A stretch of 64,000 nt of DNA, taken from Escherichia phage pEC-M719-6WT.2. The notes under the pieces are model-generated. The model was not told the DNA's origin. It saw only the letters and a list, made by a program, of their open reading frames with translations, and did not search any database. Location of the stretch: the sequence record OQ845958.1. One strand, given 5' to 3'. Positions 54,652-58,928 of this stretch are shown here, piece by piece. Within the stretch, counting starts at the first letter, position 1, and every line of letters begins with the position of its first letter. Made by a program: the position numbers and the translations under genes.

Positions 54652-55206
54652 ATGACTTTATATGATAATCTTTTATCAAATGTGGAATGGTTTGGCGGTA
54701 GTGGTCTTGCCACTGAAACTAACACAGTTCTTTATAGAATCCGCCGCGACTTGGGCTATTCCAATGATTTCTTAAGAAGAACAACAAGTCGCGGCGATAC
54801 TACCAAATTGCCTTTTATTTTTGCTTTAGCTGAAGACCTTTCTTTCGCAGATGCCTTGGAAATTATTGATGTAAATCTGGGTATTCAACGAGTGGAATTC
54901 GCTGGACTACGTTATTCAGTATATGCTTTAAACGAACCAAGTGATTATAAACAGCTTACTAATGCGGACGATGATGACCATTTGGTATGTTATTTGATGT
55001 TAGAAAATGGTGACCACTTTGGAATGGTTGACCGCCGTCCAGCTTATACTGATATTAAAAATTATGATAAAGATGAGCTTCTTGATTTGGCGGCTGAGTA
55101 TACATTAGAGGGTCGTAAACGGAAACGTAAGCTTAATCGTTTTATTGCTGAATGTCGTGAATATGCTAAAGGGGTTCAAAATGCGAACGTTATATCTGCC
55201 AAGTAA
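54652..55206 (+). CDS. Hypothetical protein ending in FIAECREY (C-terminal motif family)
   Basis: Start set to ATG 54652 after GAGAGGAG RBS. Confidence 0.5.
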   Translation: MTLYDNLLSNVEWFGGSGLATETNTVLYRIRRDLGYSNDFLRRTTSRGDTTKLPFIFALAEDLSFADALEIIDVNLGIQRVEFAGLRYSVYALNEPSDYKQLTNADDDDHLVCYLMLENGDHFGMVDRRPAYTDIKNYDKDELLDLAAEYTLEGRKRKRKLNRFIAECREYAKGVQNANVISAK

Positions 55207-55540
55207 ACCAGAAAAATTTGTATACGCAGACAAGATTGATAAAGACCTTATGCCAGCATTTGGGGCTCTGTCCATATGCATCGTTGGGGTTATAATGGTG
55301 GTGCTTTGTGGGGATATGGATATCATTAGTGTTGGAGTTGCCTGGGCGCTAATAATCGCAGCTCCTTTTATTACGGTCCTGAGTATGATATTGATAAATG
55401 TGTGGCATCAAAATCATATGAATAAAGGATATCGTGGGCGAGTTAAAGAGTGGGAACAAAAATGTATTTCCCTACAAGAAGAGCACAAAATTAAATGTGC
55501 CGAAGAATTTATTAAGGAGGTTCGTAATGGAACGGCCTAG
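55181..55540 (+). CDS. Small membrane protein (2 TM), C-terminal EEFIKEVRNG
   Basis: Start set to ATG 55181 after AAAGGGG; two hydrophobic helices. Confidence 0.5.
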   Translation: MRTLYLPSKPEKFVYADKIDKDLMPAFGALSICIVGVIMVVLCGDMDIISVGVAWALIIAAPFITVLSMILINVWHQNHMNKGYRGRVKEWEQKCISLQEEHKIKCAEEFIKEVRNGTA

Positions 55541-55880
55541 TCTTACATCACATGTTTATCAATTGGCTGAATATGATATTGGTGCCAATTTATTATTAGG
55601 GATTGCCACCGGTATGCTTGGTGGTTTGGTTGGTCTGGTAATGACCACGGTTATGGCTGCAATCGAGGGAGTCATGCCTATTGAGATGGGCTTCTTTATG
55701 ATAATCGCTCCGGCTGTTGTGGCTTATTTTATCCCTGTTGTGTATGATATCTGTCACACAAATGCCTTGAATGCTCCTAGTCGGAAGAGATACGCTTCAG
55801 CAATGGCTGAGTATAATAAGTTCCTAGACAAAACAAAACGTAATGACCTTGAAACCTTTATTAAGGAATGTAAATCATGA
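55527..55880 (+). CDS. Small membrane protein (2-3 TM), C-terminal ETFIKECKS
   Basis: Start set to ATG 55527, whose RBS AAGGAGG is encoded by the C-terminal codons of the upstream gene. Confidence 0.5.
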   Translation: MERPSLTSHVYQLAEYDIGANLLLGIATGMLGGLVGLVMTTVMAAIEGVMPIEMGFFMIIAPAVVAYFIPVVYDICHTNALNAPSRKRYASAMAEYNKFLDKTKRNDLETFIKECKS

Positions 55881-56167
55881 ATAAAATTGAAATTGCTATC
55901 CCCAAGTATTATGATGAGAAATCTGCAGAAAAAGCTATCTATTCTCTTCTAAATAAGACCTCTGAAATTGAAAAACACTGTGAAGAAATCGCAGATGAAT
56001 ATGGTATCCAATTCGGTACCGGTGATTATGGTTCAGGCCGTACATATTATCCTGTCGGTTATGAGTGCTCCCAGTGGTTTAAAGATGAAATTGAAAACAA
56101 CGGCGGCGAAGTTGAAAACGGTGTCGTTACAGTTGGTGCTTGGGTCTCCTCTTCGGCAATGTGCTAA
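55877..56167 (+). CDS. Small protein, WVSSSxxC-tail family member A
   Basis: 96 aa ending WVSSSAMC; ATGA overlap with the upstream gene. Confidence 0.55.
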   Translation: MNKIEIAIPKYYDEKSAEKAIYSLLNKTSEIEKHCEEIADEYGIQFGTGDYGSGRTYYPVGYECSQWFKDEIENNGGEVENGVVTVGAWVSSSAMC

Positions 56168-56176
56168 GGAAACGCT

Positions 56177-56458
56177 ATGATGAATGATTACCGTAAAAAT
56201 AAAGAACTGGCTAACGCAGTAAATGATATCCATAAAGCTATTCGTCGTGCCGAGGAAATTGCAAACAAATATGAGACTCATTTTAATATATACCCTGCTC
56301 GCGGTATGGGCGGTGACTATTATTCTCCTGGTGCCTTGAAAGCTGACCTTGCCCATTGGGAAGAACATGGCCATCCTGAATGGGCTATTGTTAACACTCA
56401 TGACTATACAACTGACCTGGAAAATGGCGGATGGGTGTCCTCCTCTTCTGAATGTTAA
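56177..56458 (+). CDS. Small protein, WVSSSxxC-tail family member B
   Basis: 93 aa ending WVSSSSEC; shares GDY..G and ENGG motifs with member A. Confidence 0.55.
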   Translation: MMNDYRKNKELANAVNDIHKAIRRAEEIANKYETHFNIYPARGMGGDYYSPGALKADLAHWEEHGHPEWAIVNTHDYTTDLENGGWVSSSSEC

Positions 56459-56466
56459 GGAATTAT

Positions 56467-56664
56467 ATGTCTCGTGAATTAGATTGTGCAATCCGTACTG
56501 CCGCGGCAGCTATTGAAAACGTTATCCAGATTTGTAAAGAAGAACGCGAAGAAGCTGATATCTACATTGATGGTGTTCGTGACCTAGAACGACATATTAC
56601 GCTTTATAATGGTTGTATTACAATTAGTGGTACCTCTTGGGTGTCCTCCTCTTACGAATGCTAA
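56467..56664 (+). CDS. Small protein, WVSSSxxC-tail family member C
   Basis: About 65 aa ending WVSSSYEC; start set to ATG 56467 after TAAGGAA. Confidence 0.5.
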   Translation: MSRELDCAIRTAAAAIENVIQICKEEREEADIYIDGVRDLERHITLYNGCITISGTSWVSSSYEC

Positions 56665-56674
56665 GGAATAAAAA

Positions 56675-56899
56675 ATGACTGATATTAACGAATTAGAAAA
56701 AGCTGCTCTTGAACTGGCTGCCCTGTATAAGAAAGTAAAAGATATGGCTTCTGCTCAGGATTTTGGTGTTGAGCTAGATGATTATGACGGTGAAGTTCGT
56801 CTTGAAGATTGGCTGAATAGCTCTTGTTACGGCGAAGAAGCTGGTCGCACCTTCGTTGCCCGCGCCGACGGTAAAATCTGGTACCCGAGCTCATGCTAA
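56675..56899 (+). CDS. Small protein, divergent tail-family member D (ends WYPSSC)
   Basis: 74 aa ending IWYPSSC. Confidence 0.5.
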   Translation: MTDINELEKAALELAALYKKVKDMASAQDFGVELDDYDGEVRLEDWLNSSCYGEEAGRTFVARADGKIWYPSSC

Positions 56900-57120
56900 A
56901 ATTAAAGAAAAGATACATTAGTAAAATAAATGGTCTTCGCGATTATGCCAAAGGTTGGCCATTAAGTATTATTATGGCTGATAGACATCCACGTTATAAT
57001 AACGAGTTGACTTATTACAAAAAGTATGATTCATATTGTCGGTCTAAAGCGGGTCGTTTAGATGGTTCCTATGAAGAATATTTCGGTAAAAAACCTACTC
57101 GTATTTCGTTAGGAAAATAA
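56893..57120 (+). CDS. Hypothetical small basic protein
   Basis: 75 aa overlapping the previous stop; weak RBS. Confidence 0.4.
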   Translation: MLKLKKRYISKINGLRDYAKGWPLSIIMADRHPRYNNELTYYKKYDSYCRSKAGRLDGSYEEYFGKKPTRISLGK

Positions 57121-57222
57121 TTTAATCACAAGGATGTGATAAGAAAATTATGTACAAGATTTAGTATACAAGTCTAAAGAAACGTAGTATCATTATCTTT
57201 GTCAACTAATGAGGAAAATATT

Positions 57223-58182
57223 ATGATGTTAGTTATTGGTTCTCGTGCATTACATAACGCTGGTCTGATTGAAAGTCAGAAAATTGAAAACTCTGATTGG
57301 GACTTCATCGCAGACCAAGGTTCCTGGAACAGCTTTAAAACCCAGATGATGGGACAACACGTGCATGTGGATAACCCAGATGTTCAAGCTTTTAAATGTA
57401 TGCACAATGGTAAAGAAACCTATTTTGAAGCGTACATCGTCCGCGCACTGACAAGTGTTCGTGAATTGACTGATGAGTTACAAGAGGAAGATTTTACCTC
57501 CAGTTATCGTCTGCTCAAATATGCGAAGGCAAATATTCAGAAAGACCGTCTATCTGGTTTTTACTGGGCAACTCCTGATATTTGTCTGGCAATTAAATTG
57601 TCTCATCGTTACCTGAAGAACAATCCATTCTTCCTGAAGACCATGAGTCATATTAATTACCTTCGCAATAAGGGTGTTGTTCTTAATGACGAACTGCAGA
57701 AAATCATGCTGCAACGCCAGGCAGAAACATTGTCGTATAGTCACCCTAAACTAGACGTGGGCAAGAAAACTTTCTTTAATGATACAATCTATACCCTTGA
57801 CCATGACTCCATCCACGAGGCCGTGGCGCTTGCTGATAAGCCTGCATATAAGTTCTATATGAAGGATGATTCAGAAGTCATGACCTCGCGTGAAAAATTT
57901 GAAGCACTCCCTGAGATTATTAAACTGGCAGGGGTTTATGAAGAAGCATGTGTGCTCGCTCTGGAGCGTTCGCAGGTTCCTAATGAGTTCAATATCTCTC
58001 CATCTGTGAGCTTCCATATTGCGCTAGAAAAAGTCTGTACCTCCATTACTTCTGGATGGTTCCGTGAGTACGCCTGGGAACATTACCAGGAAGTGGTTAA
58101 TATGTACAACACCCTGGGCCGCGAAGACTATGTTAAACGTTTCAAGGCTAACCAACATTTAATTCGTCCTTTCGAAAAATAA
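57223..58182 (+). CDS. Hypothetical protein with possible nucleotidyltransferase-fold motif
   Basis: Start set to ATG 57223 after GAGGA RBS; N-terminal IGSRAL-x17-SDWDFI resembles the hG[GS]...D.D NTase signature. Confidence 0.55.
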   Translation: MMLVIGSRALHNAGLIESQKIENSDWDFIADQGSWNSFKTQMMGQHVHVDNPDVQAFKCMHNGKETYFEAYIVRALTSVRELTDELQEEDFTSSYRLLKYAKANIQKDRLSGFYWATPDICLAIKLSHRYLKNNPFFLKTMSHINYLRNKGVVLNDELQKIMLQRQAETLSYSHPKLDVGKKTFFNDTIYTLDHDSIHEAVALADKPAYKFYMKDDSEVMTSREKFEALPEIIKLAGVYEEACVLALERSQVPNEFNISPSVSFHIALEKVCTSITSGWFREYAWEHYQEVVNMYNTLGREDYVKRFKANQHLIRPFEK

Positions 58183-58241: not shown

Positions 58242-58928
58242 ATGAACGGTCCGAAAACTTTTAATAGTCAAGCTCGTGCAGTTGGTGGTTTTGCACATAA
58301 CGTACAAAATGACCAAATCAAAAATGAACCAATGTTCTTTAACTGTGATTTGAGTTTTGCTTGGGATAATGGTGGCCCAATCACTCGTAGCTTTATTGCC
58401 AATCTCCCAATTGATTGGACTAATCAACATGTTGTATTTGATTCCCGGGTTCATATGCTGATGCCTGGTTGGTATCCCGCTATCCCAGGTTATCACCATG
58501 ATGATGTGCCACGTCCGGATATTCCGGTGGGTCAACACTTTATTACTGCAGGCCAACCTGATTATGATAATCCTCGATACTATTCTGAACATATTCTTGG
58601 TCTTGTTAACGCTGATGTGTGTCCTACTTATTTTGCAACCGGAACTGCACAATTTAGTCAGATTCCTGAAGGCGAACTTATCTATCGTCAGTGGCATAAA
58701 GAAGTTCTGGAAAAAATTGAGTCCAATGAATTAACCAAGTGGGATGCTCCTGACCGCACATTGCTCCAGTTTGATTGGCAGACATGGCATACAGGTTCTC
58801 GCGCAGTAAGTAACGGGTGGCGCTGGTTTGGTCGTGTGTCTCGTAATACTGACCGTGTTAAAAAGATTACAAATGAAATCCGCGTTAATGCTCAAGTATA
58901 TCTGGAATTCCCTATGGAGGGCTGGTAA
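58242..58928 (+). CDS. Hypothetical Trp/His-rich protein
   Basis: 228 aa with GAGGA RBS; no recognisable motif. Confidence 0.55.
   Translation: MNGPKTFNSQARAVGGFAHNVQNDQIKNEPMFFNCDLSFAWDNGGPITRSFIANLPIDWTNQHVVFDSRVHMLMPGWYPAIPGYHHDDVPRPDIPVGQHFITAGQPDYDNPRYYSEHILGLVNADVCPTYFATGTAQFSQIPEGELIYRQWHKEVLEKIESNELTKWDAPDRTLLQFDWQTWHTGSRAVSNGWRWFGRVSRNTDRVKKITNEIRVNAQVYLEFPMEGW

What the first reader, a model, noticed from the sequence alone, without database searches (positions are those of the whole stretch)
55877..56899. Tandem array of four small proteins with a conserved C-terminal W-V-S-S-S-x-E-C tail and near-identical gene junctions
Four consecutive genes end in ...WVSSSAMC, ...WVSSSSEC, ...WVSSSYEC and ...WYPSSC. 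Members A and B also share internal motifs (GDY..G, ENGG), so they are genuine paralogs. The last 25-30 nt of each gene plus stop and RBS are nearly identical, for example TGGGTGTCCTCCTCTTCTGAATGTTAAGGAA. The tail is kept while the rest diverges, which suggests a functional C-terminal tag such as a binding, targeting or modification site, with a terminal Cys. The direct repeats could also drive copy-number change by unequal recombination. I do not recognise this family.
Basis: seen in the sequence. Interest (0 to 1): 0.65.

Follow-up and report, generated by a model that had tools for sequence, protein, structure and literature searches.

The report
Phage small-protein array with Cys tail
Four neighbouring genes of a T4-like coliphage encode old paralogs of a widespread, uncharacterised phage protein family that always ends in Trp-x-x-Ser-Ser…Cys, and across very different phages this family sits next to the same putative nucleotidyltransferase gene, which points to an undescribed two-part phage module.

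Summary
Four consecutive + strand genes (A 55877-56167, B 56177-56458, C 56467-56664, D 56675-56899) end in WVSSSAMC, WVSSSSEC, WVSSSYEC and WYPSSC. D also carries an internal WLNSSC.

The window is a Gaprivervirus (about 98% identical to phage vB_EcoM_RZ). The genes lie in the e.3–e.2 accessory region, a block that T4's own e region lacks.

All four are true but ancient paralogs (PHROG 899 and 4882). Orthologs of each type occur in at least six Tevenvirinae genera.

An exhaustive profile search found 91 cluster representatives. All are small proteins, mostly acidic. All 86 new ones end in G-W-x-[SAP]-S-[ST]-x-x-C. Invariant Ser positions use all six Ser codons, and junction RNA folds no better than shuffles. 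Selection therefore acts on the peptide, not on an RBS element.

B is the canonical form: N-terminal helix, AYGMGGTY loop, tail. Its AlphaFold model (pLDDT 89) has no structural relative.

The main new result is synteny. Family members lie within about 1.4 kb of a DUF7277–DUF7275 protein (window 57223-58182, putative polβ-type nucleotidyltransferase) in every locus that could be judged, across unrelated phage groups.

Best guess: the tail is the handle or modification site for that enzyme. Function is untested.

The parts
55877..56167 (+). Gene A, 96 aa. A-type paralog with the DYGSGRTYYP variant of the Gly loop; tail WVSSSAMC at 56141-56164.
   Evidence: PHROG 899, E 4e-23; orthologs in 8 T4-like loci
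56177..56458 (+). Gene B, 93 aa. Canonical family form: N-terminal helix, ARGMGGDYY loop (56297-56323), helical insert, tail GGWVSSSSEC (W at 56432).
   Evidence: PHROG 899, E 1e-19; 75/86 representatives are B-like; AF2 pLDDT 89
56467..56664 (+). Gene C, 65 aa. C-type paralog that lacks the Gly loop; tail WVSSSYEC (W at 56638). An alternative upstream ATG at 56452 is probably not used.
   Evidence: PHROG 4882, E 2e-36; hhalign 97% to B-like
56675..56899 (+). Gene D, 74 aa. D-type paralog with two motif copies: internal WLNSSC (56810-56827) and terminal WYPSSC (56879-56896).
   Evidence: the double motif is conserved in Moonvirus, Tegunavirus, Kanagawavirus and Phapecoctavirus
56141..56172 (+). 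Junction repeat copy 1: tail codons, TAA and AAGGA RBS. 69% identical to copy 2.
56432..56463 (+). Junction repeat copy 2 (the reference copy).
56638..56669 (+). Junction repeat copy 3 (91% identical to copy 2). This is also the site where the fifth gene (E) of SP18-like relatives is absent.
57223..58182 (+). Conserved partner gene: DUF7277 + DUF7275 protein, 319 aa from the ATG (the ORF opens at TTG 57199). The N-terminus has a polβ-nucleotidyltransferase-like motif: MLVIGSRAL..x..DWDFIA, with a downstream Glu.
   Evidence: (PF23942 E 2e-27, PF23940 E 8e-76)
56893..57120 (+). Intervening 75-aa basic protein (PHROG 7065, pI 9.9). Its start overlaps the stop of D (ATGCTAA). It is present only in close relatives, so it is probably not a core part.

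Best explanation
The four genes are ancient paralogs of one widespread phage family of small, mostly acidic proteins. The family has an N-terminal amphipathic helix, a short beta element that in the canonical form carries an AYGMGGTY glycine loop, a variable and mostly acidic middle, and an invariant C-terminal G-W-x-x-S-S-(0-3 residues)-Cys. The tail is under amino-acid-level selection.

The family forms a conserved gene module with a DUF7277-DUF7275 protein that looks like a polβ-type nucleotidyltransferase. My best mechanistic guess is that the shared tail is the element through which every paralog engages that one enzyme. The Trp would be the anchor, and the Ser-Ser hydroxyls and/or the terminal Cys thiol would be the site that is bound or covalently modified, for example by nucleotidylation. 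The divergent bodies would give each paralog a different target or role early in infection.

Shown: the family, tail conservation, paralogy and synteny. Inferred: direct tail-enzyme contact, any covalent chemistry, and the biological role (host take-over or anti-defence).
For: Family and tail:
- The exhaustive profile search gave 91 representatives, all 60-153 aa, with the match always running to the C-terminus.
- 86/86 new representatives have W, S(+3), S/T(+4) and C(+7) invariant.
- All six Ser codons are used at both Ser positions.
- 15/86 carry an extra upstream W-x-S-S unit, mostly 7 residues before the tail Trp, against 0.9 expected from shuffles. D's double motif is conserved across genera.

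Paralogy.

Old orthologous types A-E occur in Gaprivervirus, Moonvirus, Mosigvirus, Tegunavirus, Kanagawavirus and a Klebsiella T4-like phage.

Synteny with DUF7277/7275:
- 8/8 T4-like loci.
- 17/17 IMG/VR loci where the downstream DNA is present, with gaps of 60-1372 bp on the same strand.
- 8/8 diverse phages chosen only because they hold the enzyme: Otagovirus, Phapecoctavirus, two Aeromonas straboviruses, Xanthomonas X1, Acinetobacter Lazarusvirus, Serratia Muldoonvirus and a 360-kb Klebsiella jumbo phage.
- Two non-T4-like contigs show it by Pfam.
- T4's e region lacks both the array and the enzyme.

A sister clade of the enzyme pairs with a different small protein, and that protein is fused to the enzyme in Alteromonas phage PT11-V22. 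This shows that enzyme-small-partner coupling is a property of this enzyme family.

Enzyme invariants G6 S7 ... D25 x D27 ... E69 fit the polβ NTase signature.
Against: - There is no direct evidence of interaction or modification.
- The NTase assignment rests on a short motif only. Pfam gives only DUFs even at E<=10. The profile finds nothing in the PDB. hhalign against E. coli Cca and GlnD is not significant.
- In the AF2 model the G-W-V-S part of the tail is a confident beta strand of the fold (residues 84-88). Only the last 3 residues are low-confidence, so part of the conservation is structural.
- Other genes, and in some genera a GTTTAC motif that looks like a -35 element, lie between the array and the enzyme. 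In Xanthomonas X1 the small genes lie downstream of the enzyme.
- The enzyme's own Cys in KVCTSITSGW is not invariant.
Confidence: 0.45

Rival explanations
1. The tail is a docking tag or warhead aimed at a host factor, such as a C-terminal-peptide-binding or metal-dependent host or defence protein. The paralogs would act as inhibitors or decoys. The neighbouring enzyme would act in the same pathway without touching the tail.
For: - The proteins are small, acidic and early-region (net charge median -8), which is typical of phage host-takeover inhibitors (general knowledge).
- The terminal Cys sits in the low-confidence, probably flexible last 3 residues.
- The W-x-S-S unit is repeated, as in an avidity motif.
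- The block is accessory: it is absent from T4's e region.
Against: - It does not explain why the family is tied so tightly to one enzyme gene across unrelated phages with different hosts: Escherichia, Pseudomonas, Xanthomonas, Acinetobacter and Aeromonas.
- There are no hits to known defence or anti-defence models.
Confidence: 0.25
2. The tail is purely structural. It is the last beta strand plus a C-cap of a tiny alpha/beta fold and is conserved for folding only.
For: The AF2 model with a 71-sequence alignment (pLDDT 89, pTM 0.72) puts G-G-W-V-S in a strand (residues 84-88). The only other strand of 3 or more residues is 46-49, right after the Gly loop, so pairing between the two is inferred.
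Against: - The invariant terminal Cys lies in the only low-confidence stretch of the model.
- Its distance from Trp varies (+5, +7, +8), yet it stays last or next-to-last.
- The tail is kept in C, D and E types, which have lost the Gly loop.
- The motif is duplicated in D and in 15/86 representatives.
Confidence: 0.15
3. The proteins are ribosomally synthesised peptide precursors. The Ser-Ser...Cys-COOH end would be converted into a lanthionine or aminovinyl-cysteine type crosslink.
For: - The Ser-x-x-Cys-COOH arrangement resembles sites where aminovinyl-cysteine forms in epidermin-type peptides (my own knowledge).
- Several precursor-like paralogs sit beside one enzyme.
- There is a weak, non-significant hit to a Nif11 leader domain (E 1.3).
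Against: - No dehydratase, cyclase or HFCD decarboxylase domain is found in the neighbouring genes scanned.
- The conserved part is the tail and the variable part is the body, the reverse of leader and core peptides.
- The body is predicted to be a folded domain.
- The phages concerned are virulent, with no export genes nearby.
Confidence: 0.03
4. The shared tail is a by-product of a conserved nucleotide element: an RBS or translational-coupling module, or a recombination site.
For: The B/C junctions are 91% identical over 32 nt, and TAAGGA stop-RBS overlaps recur.
Against: - Synonymous codons vary freely, including TCN to AGY switches.
- The tail is present where no gene follows.
- D encodes it with different codons.
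- Junction RNA folds are no more stable than shuffles (z +1.65, +1.64, -0.06, +0.31).
Confidence: 0.02

Closest known systems
PHROG 899 and PHROG 4882 (phage protein clusters of unknown function)
   Same: A, B and D match PHROG 899 and C matches PHROG 4882 with strong E-values. These clusters are the family itself.
   Different: The clusters carry no function and no motif description. They split one family in two. They do not record the link to DUF7277/7275.
Nucleotidyltransferases that act on a small protein partner: GlnD on PII, MntA on HepT, CitX on the citrate lyase acyl carrier protein (my own knowledge)
   Same: One polβ-type enzyme is encoded next to small proteins that carry an invariant hydroxyl-bearing site. 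Here the enzyme has a GS...DxD...E signature and strict synteny with the small proteins.
   Different: No detectable homology to these enzymes or to their substrates. Here there are several paralogous partners per enzyme, the site is at the extreme C-terminus, and it ends in Cys. No modification has been shown.
Arrays of peptide precursor paralogs served by one modifying enzyme (prochlorosin/ProcM type; my own knowledge)
   Same: Tandem paralogs share one short conserved recognition segment while the rest diverges, next to a single enzyme gene.
   Different: The conserved segment is C-terminal and the proteins are predicted to be folded domains. No lanthipeptide enzymes are present.
Flexible C-terminal cysteine tails that shuttle substrates or electrons (mercuric reductase, ribonucleotide reductase R1; my own knowledge)
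   Same: A conserved Cys lies at a probably mobile C-terminal end.
   Different: Those tails have Cys pairs and belong to the enzyme itself. Here a single Cys sits on a separate small protein.
Pfam DUF7277 (PF23942) and DUF7275 (PF23940)
   Same: The partner protein at 57223-58182 is a full-length member of both.
   Different: Both are domains of unknown function. I found no paper that mentions them.

Membership tests
PHROG 899 / 4882 | Significant match to the family HMM | tested here: met
   A 3.7e-23, B 1e-19 and D 6.4e-10 to PHROG 899; C 2.4e-36 to PHROG 4882.
GW-x-SS-x-x-C tail family (as delineated here) | C-terminal W-x-x-S-[ST]-(0-3 residues)-C at or one residue from the end | tested here: met
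   All four window proteins have it. So do 86/86 new representatives.
GW-x-SS-x-x-C tail family (as delineated here) | N-terminal amphipathic helix followed by an h-x-F-x-h strand, homologous across types | tested here: met
   hhalign of C-type versus B-like: 97%. D-type versus B-like: 93%, over this segment only. AF2 places a helix at residues 9-31.
GW-x-SS-x-x-C tail family (as delineated here) | AYGMGGTY glycine loop (canonical form) | tested here: met
   B has ARGMGGDYY and A has the variant DYGSGRTYY. C and D lack the loop, as do their orthologs.
GW-x-SS-x-x-C tail family (as delineated here) | Encoded within about 1.4 kb of a DUF7277-DUF7275 gene | tested here: met
   In the window, D ends at 56899 and the enzyme starts at 57223. 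The same holds in every locus that could be judged.
Polβ-superfamily nucleotidyltransferase (partner protein) | hG[GS] ... [DE]h[DE]h plus a third acidic residue | tested here: met
   G6, S7, D25 and D27 are invariant and E69 is about 90% conserved in 12 diverse homologs.
Polβ-superfamily nucleotidyltransferase (partner protein) | Profile- or structure-level similarity to known NTases | tested here: inconclusive
   No Pfam NTase hit even at E<=10. No PDB sequence hit. hhalign against Cca and GlnD is not significant, although these were single-sequence templates with low power.
Protein-nucleotidylation pair (GlnD-PII or MntA-HepT type) | Covalent NMP transfer to a defined residue of the small partner | not testable with these tools
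   This needs mass spectrometry or labelling.
Lanthipeptide / aminovinyl-cysteine precursor peptides | Dehydratase, cyclase or HFCD decarboxylase encoded nearby; conserved leader with a variable core | tested here: not met
   No such domains in the flanking genes of the window or of two unrelated loci. The conservation pattern is the reverse of leader and core.
Toxin-antitoxin or defence NTase systems (AbiEii/MenT, HEPN-MNT, CBASS) | Match to known defence-system models | tested here: not met
   PADLOC gives no hit for the enzyme, for A-D, or for the neighbours at E<=0.1.
Conserved nucleotide element (RBS or coupling module) | Conservation at the DNA or RNA level that exceeds protein-level conservation; RNA structure | tested here: not met
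   Codon diversity. Fold z-scores are not negative.

The most novel reading that the evidence does not exclude
The tail family and the DUF7277-DUF7275 protein together form a previously unrecognised two-component system that is widespread in large virulent phages. A nucleotidyltransferase-like enzyme would covalently mark, or be steered by, a set of interchangeable small acidic proteins through an invariant C-terminal W-x-x-S-S...Cys handle. That would be a new kind of phage protein-tagging or adaptor mechanism for host take-over or counter-defence.
Probability: 0.3. Interest if true: 0.8.

Novelty: new variant of a known kind. Interest (0 to 1): 0.62.

Why it matters
Hundreds of sequenced phages annotate these genes as 'hypothetical', and some wrongly as 'tail completion protein'. 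They include T4-like phages of E. coli, Klebsiella, Acinetobacter and Aeromonas, rV5-like phages and jumbo phages.

The genes form one family with an invariant reactive-looking C-terminus, and they are tied to a single enzyme-like gene. That turns anonymous ORFs into a concrete, testable module: one enzyme with several tail-bearing partners. If the enzyme modifies or uses the tail, it would be a new phage post-translational system with a compact peptide handle, of interest for phage-host conflict and possibly as a tagging tool. It also gives a first functional lead for two Pfam DUFs.

Tried and rejected
- Pfam, NCBIfam and PADLOC scans of A-D gave nothing.
- PDB sequence searches with family profiles returned only low-complexity helical hits.
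- The first AF2 run with a shallow 21-sequence alignment was poor (pLDDT 63). It was superseded by the 71-sequence run.
I replaced it with a degenerate DNA pattern for AYGMGGTY.
- The same pattern on bacterial genomes gave 5 hits at roughly chance level by my own rough estimate, and none is a family member. So presence in bacteria or prophages remains untested.
- A first comparison of tblastn counts (284 records for B, 731 for the enzyme) suggested weak linkage. Sampling showed this was a sensitivity artefact for the short proteins, plus a sister enzyme clade with another partner.
- The idea that the enzyme's KVCTSITSGW mirrors the tail and pairs Cys with Cys was dropped to speculation. That Cys is Ala in one tail-bearing locus and appears to be replaced in the sister-clade enzymes read by eye.
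- The HD-domain idea for DUF7275 (H...HD...) found no profile support.
- The promoter and terminator scan was at chance level.
- Six literature searches found nothing on the family, the motif, the PHROGs or the DUFs.
Full report
**1. What is in the window**

Positions 55877-56899 hold four tightly packed + strand genes:
- A, 55877-56167, 96 aa, ending WVSSSAMC.
- B, 56177-56458, 93 aa, ending WVSSSSEC.
- C, 56467-56664, 65 aa, ending WVSSSYEC.
- D, 56675-56899, 74 aa, ending WYPSSC.

For C, the MSRELDC start is conserved across genera. Phage RZ's annotation uses an upstream ATG at 56452 instead. D has a second, internal WLNSSC motif 21 residues before its terminal one. A six-frame scan of the whole window finds the tail in these four ORFs only.

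The direct DNA repeat exists but is modest. Over 32 nt covering the tail codons, TAA and the AAGGA RBS, B and C are 91% identical and A and B are 69% identical. D is not in the repeat family.

**2. Genome context**

The segment is 97-98% identical to Escherichia phages vB_EcoM_RZ and DK-13 (Straboviridae, Tevenvirinae, Gaprivervirus). The gene order is:

e.6 – an unnamed gene – e.4-like and e.3-like membrane proteins – A-B-C-D – a 75-aa basic protein – a DUF7277/DUF7275 protein – a 228-aa protein – e.2 – an unnamed gene – nudix hydrolase (T4 e.1/nudE) – e lysozyme – denV.

In T4 itself e.3 abuts e.2. The 12-kb T4 stretch I examined has no array, no DUF7277/7275 gene and no 228-aa gene. I did not scan the rest of the T4 genome.

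**3. The genes are real, old paralogs**

A, B and D match PHROG 899 and C matches PHROG 4882. Profile-profile comparison links C-type to the B-like profile over the full length (97%, E 5e-11). It links D-type to the same profile over the N-terminal helix and strand alone (93%, E 3e-7), so homology does not rest on the tail. A versus B gives BLASTP E 2e-4.

Each type has orthologs in other genera: Moonvirus Merlin, Mosigvirus JS09, Tegunavirus fHe-Yen9-01, a Klebsiella T4-like phage, and Kanagawavirus IME523 and PEi26. A fifth type, E (...GFW[FY][NS]SSM..C), is also found. Arrays hold 3-5 genes and gene order varies. Paralogs within the window are only about 21-34% identical to A. These are therefore ancient duplications, not recent ones.

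**4. The tail is selected as a peptide**

Among 60 distinct canonical tails collected from all fetched loci, the two invariant Ser positions each use all six Ser codons (TCN and AGY), and Cys uses TGC 41 times and TGT 19 times. The tail is present on genes that end an array and are followed directly by a GTTTAC motif, which reads like a -35 element, rather than by an RBS. The four junction RNAs fold no better than dinucleotide shuffles (z +1.65, +1.64, -0.06, +0.31).

**5. Copy-number change**

SP18-like relatives carry gene E between C and D. The window and RZ-like phages do not. Alignment puts the breakpoints inside the junction sequence shared by the C/E and E/D boundaries, TGCTAAGG..ATAAAATGACT. 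This is consistent with deletion or insertion by recombination between junctions, though the direction cannot be told.

**6. The wider family**

An exhaustive HMMER search of 1.84 billion representatives with a 21-sequence profile returned 91 representatives with E<=1e-3. All are 60-153 aa, and the match always reaches the last residue.
- All 86 new sequences end in G-W-x-[SAP]-S-[ST]-x-x-C. Of these, 81 stop at the Cys and 5 have one extra residue.
- 75 of the 86 are B-like, with a second near-invariant motif AYGMGGTY after a helix ending ...AE.IADE..h.F. B is therefore the canonical form, and A, C, D and E are derived.
- The proteins are acidic (median net charge -8).
- 15 of the 86 carry an additional upstream W-x-S-S unit, mostly exactly 7 residues before the tail Trp. 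Shuffles give 0.9 on average, with a maximum of 4. D's double motif is one case of this general tendency.
- The ten divergent representatives I looked up are metagenomic and unnamed.
- There is no Pfam, NCBIfam, PADLOC or PDB sequence match.

**7. Structure**

With a 71-sequence alignment, AlphaFold2 gives a confident model of B (pLDDT 89, pTM 0.72). Its elements are helix 9-31, strand 46-49 (just after the Gly loop), helices 51-63 and 71-74 (a lineage-specific insert), strand 84-88 (GGWVS) and a short turn at 89-92. Only the last three residues are low-confidence.

These are the only two strands of three or more residues, so I infer that they pair. That would put the Gly loop and the tail side by side.

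**8. The key new observation: a conserved partner**

The protein at 57223-58182 is a full-length DUF7277 + DUF7275 member. Its gene lies next to the tail-family genes in every locus that could be judged:
- It follows the array in all eight T4-like loci.
- It follows tail-family genes on the same strand, 60-1372 bp away, in 17 of 17 IMG/VR loci whose downstream DNA is present. The other four loci are cut off. These include contigs that are clearly not T4-like, with contig lengths of 10-389 kb. Pfam confirms the enzyme in two of them.
- In the reverse test I picked eight diverse GenBank phages only because tblastn found the enzyme in them: Pseudomonas Otagovirus phiPsa374, E. coli Phapecoctavirus, two Aeromonas straboviruses, Xanthomonas phage X1, Acinetobacter Lazarusvirus AM101, Serratia Muldoonvirus WSPA and the 360-kb Klebsiella phage fENko-Kae01. 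All eight have one to three tail-family genes within about 1.5 kb. In seven the small genes are upstream, and in X1 they are downstream.

The earlier impression of weak linkage (284 versus 731 tblastn records) had two causes. One is poor sensitivity for the short, divergent proteins. The other is a distant sister clade of the enzyme (Streptomyces, Gordonia, Vibrio and Alteromonas phages) that lacks the tail family.

That sister clade is instead flanked by a different small protein family, unrelated by hhalign. In Alteromonas phage PT11-V22 this other protein is fused to the enzyme's C-terminus (51% identity to the free Vibrio protein, E 2e-14). Coupling to small partner proteins therefore seems to be a general property of this enzyme family.

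**9. What the partner might be**

Twelve diverse homologs share invariant G6-S7, D25-x-D27 and a near-invariant E69. The layout is hhhhGS-helix-DxDhh, the signature of polβ-type nucleotidyltransferases. By eye it is much like the E. coli Cca N-terminus (Cca sequence). One GenBank record calls it a putative nucleotidyltransferase.

Beyond the motif I could not confirm this. Pfam gives only the DUFs at E<=10. There is no PDB sequence hit. hhalign against Cca and GlnD is not significant. DUF7275 has many invariant basic and His/Asp residues (SHR, YDHDSIH, ALER, KVCTSITSGWFRE) but no assignable fold.

**10. Interpretation**

Shown:
- A widespread phage family with an invariant, peptide-level-selected C-terminal motif.
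- Ancient paralog arrays.
- Strict synteny with one enzyme-like gene.

Inferred (my estimate about 0.45): the tail is the common element by which all paralogs engage that enzyme, as a docking handle and/or a site of covalent modification on Ser or Cys. The divergent bodies would supply different targets. A specific Ser nucleotidylation is a guess, at about 0.15-0.2.

This arrangement works like GlnD-PII, MntA-HepT or CitX-acyl carrier pairs, and like one-enzyme, many-precursor arrays. It meets none of their membership criteria.

Rivals are a host-directed tag (0.25), a purely structural tail (0.15), a crosslinked peptide precursor (0.03) and a nucleotide-level artefact (0.02, effectively refuted).

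**11. Novelty and verdict**

The genes are already clustered in PHROGs as 'unknown function', so their existence is not new. The motif definition, the unification of the two PHROGs, the five orthologous types and the conserved module with DUF7277/7275 were not found in any paper I could search.

I rate it a new variant of a known kind (enzyme plus small-protein partner module). There is a real chance (about 0.3) that it is a new mechanism. Interest is 0.62.

Noticed in passing
L056:3812-4963 (Alteromonas phage PT11-V22 ORF138); L057:3306-3602; L054:4630-5322; L055:4600-5360: A sister clade of the DUF7275 enzyme (about 250 aa) is flanked by a second, unrelated family of roughly 100-aa proteins ending ...EV.P....T.Y. 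These occur as two tandem copies in actinophages. In the Alteromonas phage the small protein is fused to the enzyme's C-terminus.
   Followed up: partly
window 55181-55540 and 55527-55880: Two adjacent e.4-like and e.3-like predicted membrane proteins overlap by 14 nt. They give a weak cross-hit between PHROG 2604 and PHROG 2330, so they may be another tandem paralog pair just upstream of the array.
   Followed up: no
L061:794-1546, L062:5104-5790, L059:5413-6216: The proteins hit in Erythrobacter, a Sphingomonadales MAG and a Mycobacterium MAG look by eye like LexA/CI-type S24 repressors (a GDSMAPTI stretch is downstream). They carry the exact string IDLAYGMGGTY ahead of that stretch. By my rough estimate the number of pattern hits is near chance, so this is probably coincidence, but the motif identity is striking.
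   Followed up: partly
window 56893-56899: The start codon of the 75-aa basic protein (PHROG 7065) overlaps the stop of D (ATGCTAA), which suggests translational coupling. This gene is present only in close relatives.
   Followed up: no
window 57121-57222: This is the only sizeable intergenic gap in the block. It has a small palindrome, ATCACA-AGGA-TGTGAT (57125-57140), and a weak sigma-70-like match (57165-57193). In other genera a GTTTAC motif, which reads like a -35 element, follows the last array gene directly. The enzyme may therefore have its own early promoter.
   Followed up: partly
GenBank records behind hits H11, H17, H38, H39, H81: Some GenBank records label genes in this block 'tail completion protein', 'major capsid protein', 'sulfurtransferase', 'transposase' and the like. 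Nothing here supports these names, and they look like annotation artefacts.
   Followed up: no
P0046 (102 aa) and P0039 (97 aa), metagenomic D-type proteins: These D-type proteins have an N-terminal extension. In P0046 the extension looks like a transmembrane helix fused in frame to the D body. This could be a gene fusion or a miscalled start at the site where gene E is present or absent.
   Followed up: no
P0070, P0092, P0106, P0108, P0120, P0122, P0127, P0144, P0146, P0149: A subset of B-like family members carries a conserved helical insert of about 30 aa (...MTRSEALALLxSGxxLTxEQ...) between the Gly loop and the tail. It differs from the insert in the T4-like B proteins.
   Followed up: no
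window 58242-58928: A 228-aa protein (PHROG 1843, RB69ORF132c-like) follows the enzyme gene in the window and in four of the T4-like loci examined, but not in unrelated phages. It has no Pfam, NCBIfam or PADLOC match.
   Followed up: partly
L066 (Klebsiella phage fENko-Kae01), ENKO_111 and ENKO_113: In this record several neighbouring proteins are flagged 'identified with LC-MS/MS analysis', but the tail-family member and the DUF7275 protein are not. If that analysis was of virions, as I assume, this would fit non-structural proteins.
   Followed up: no
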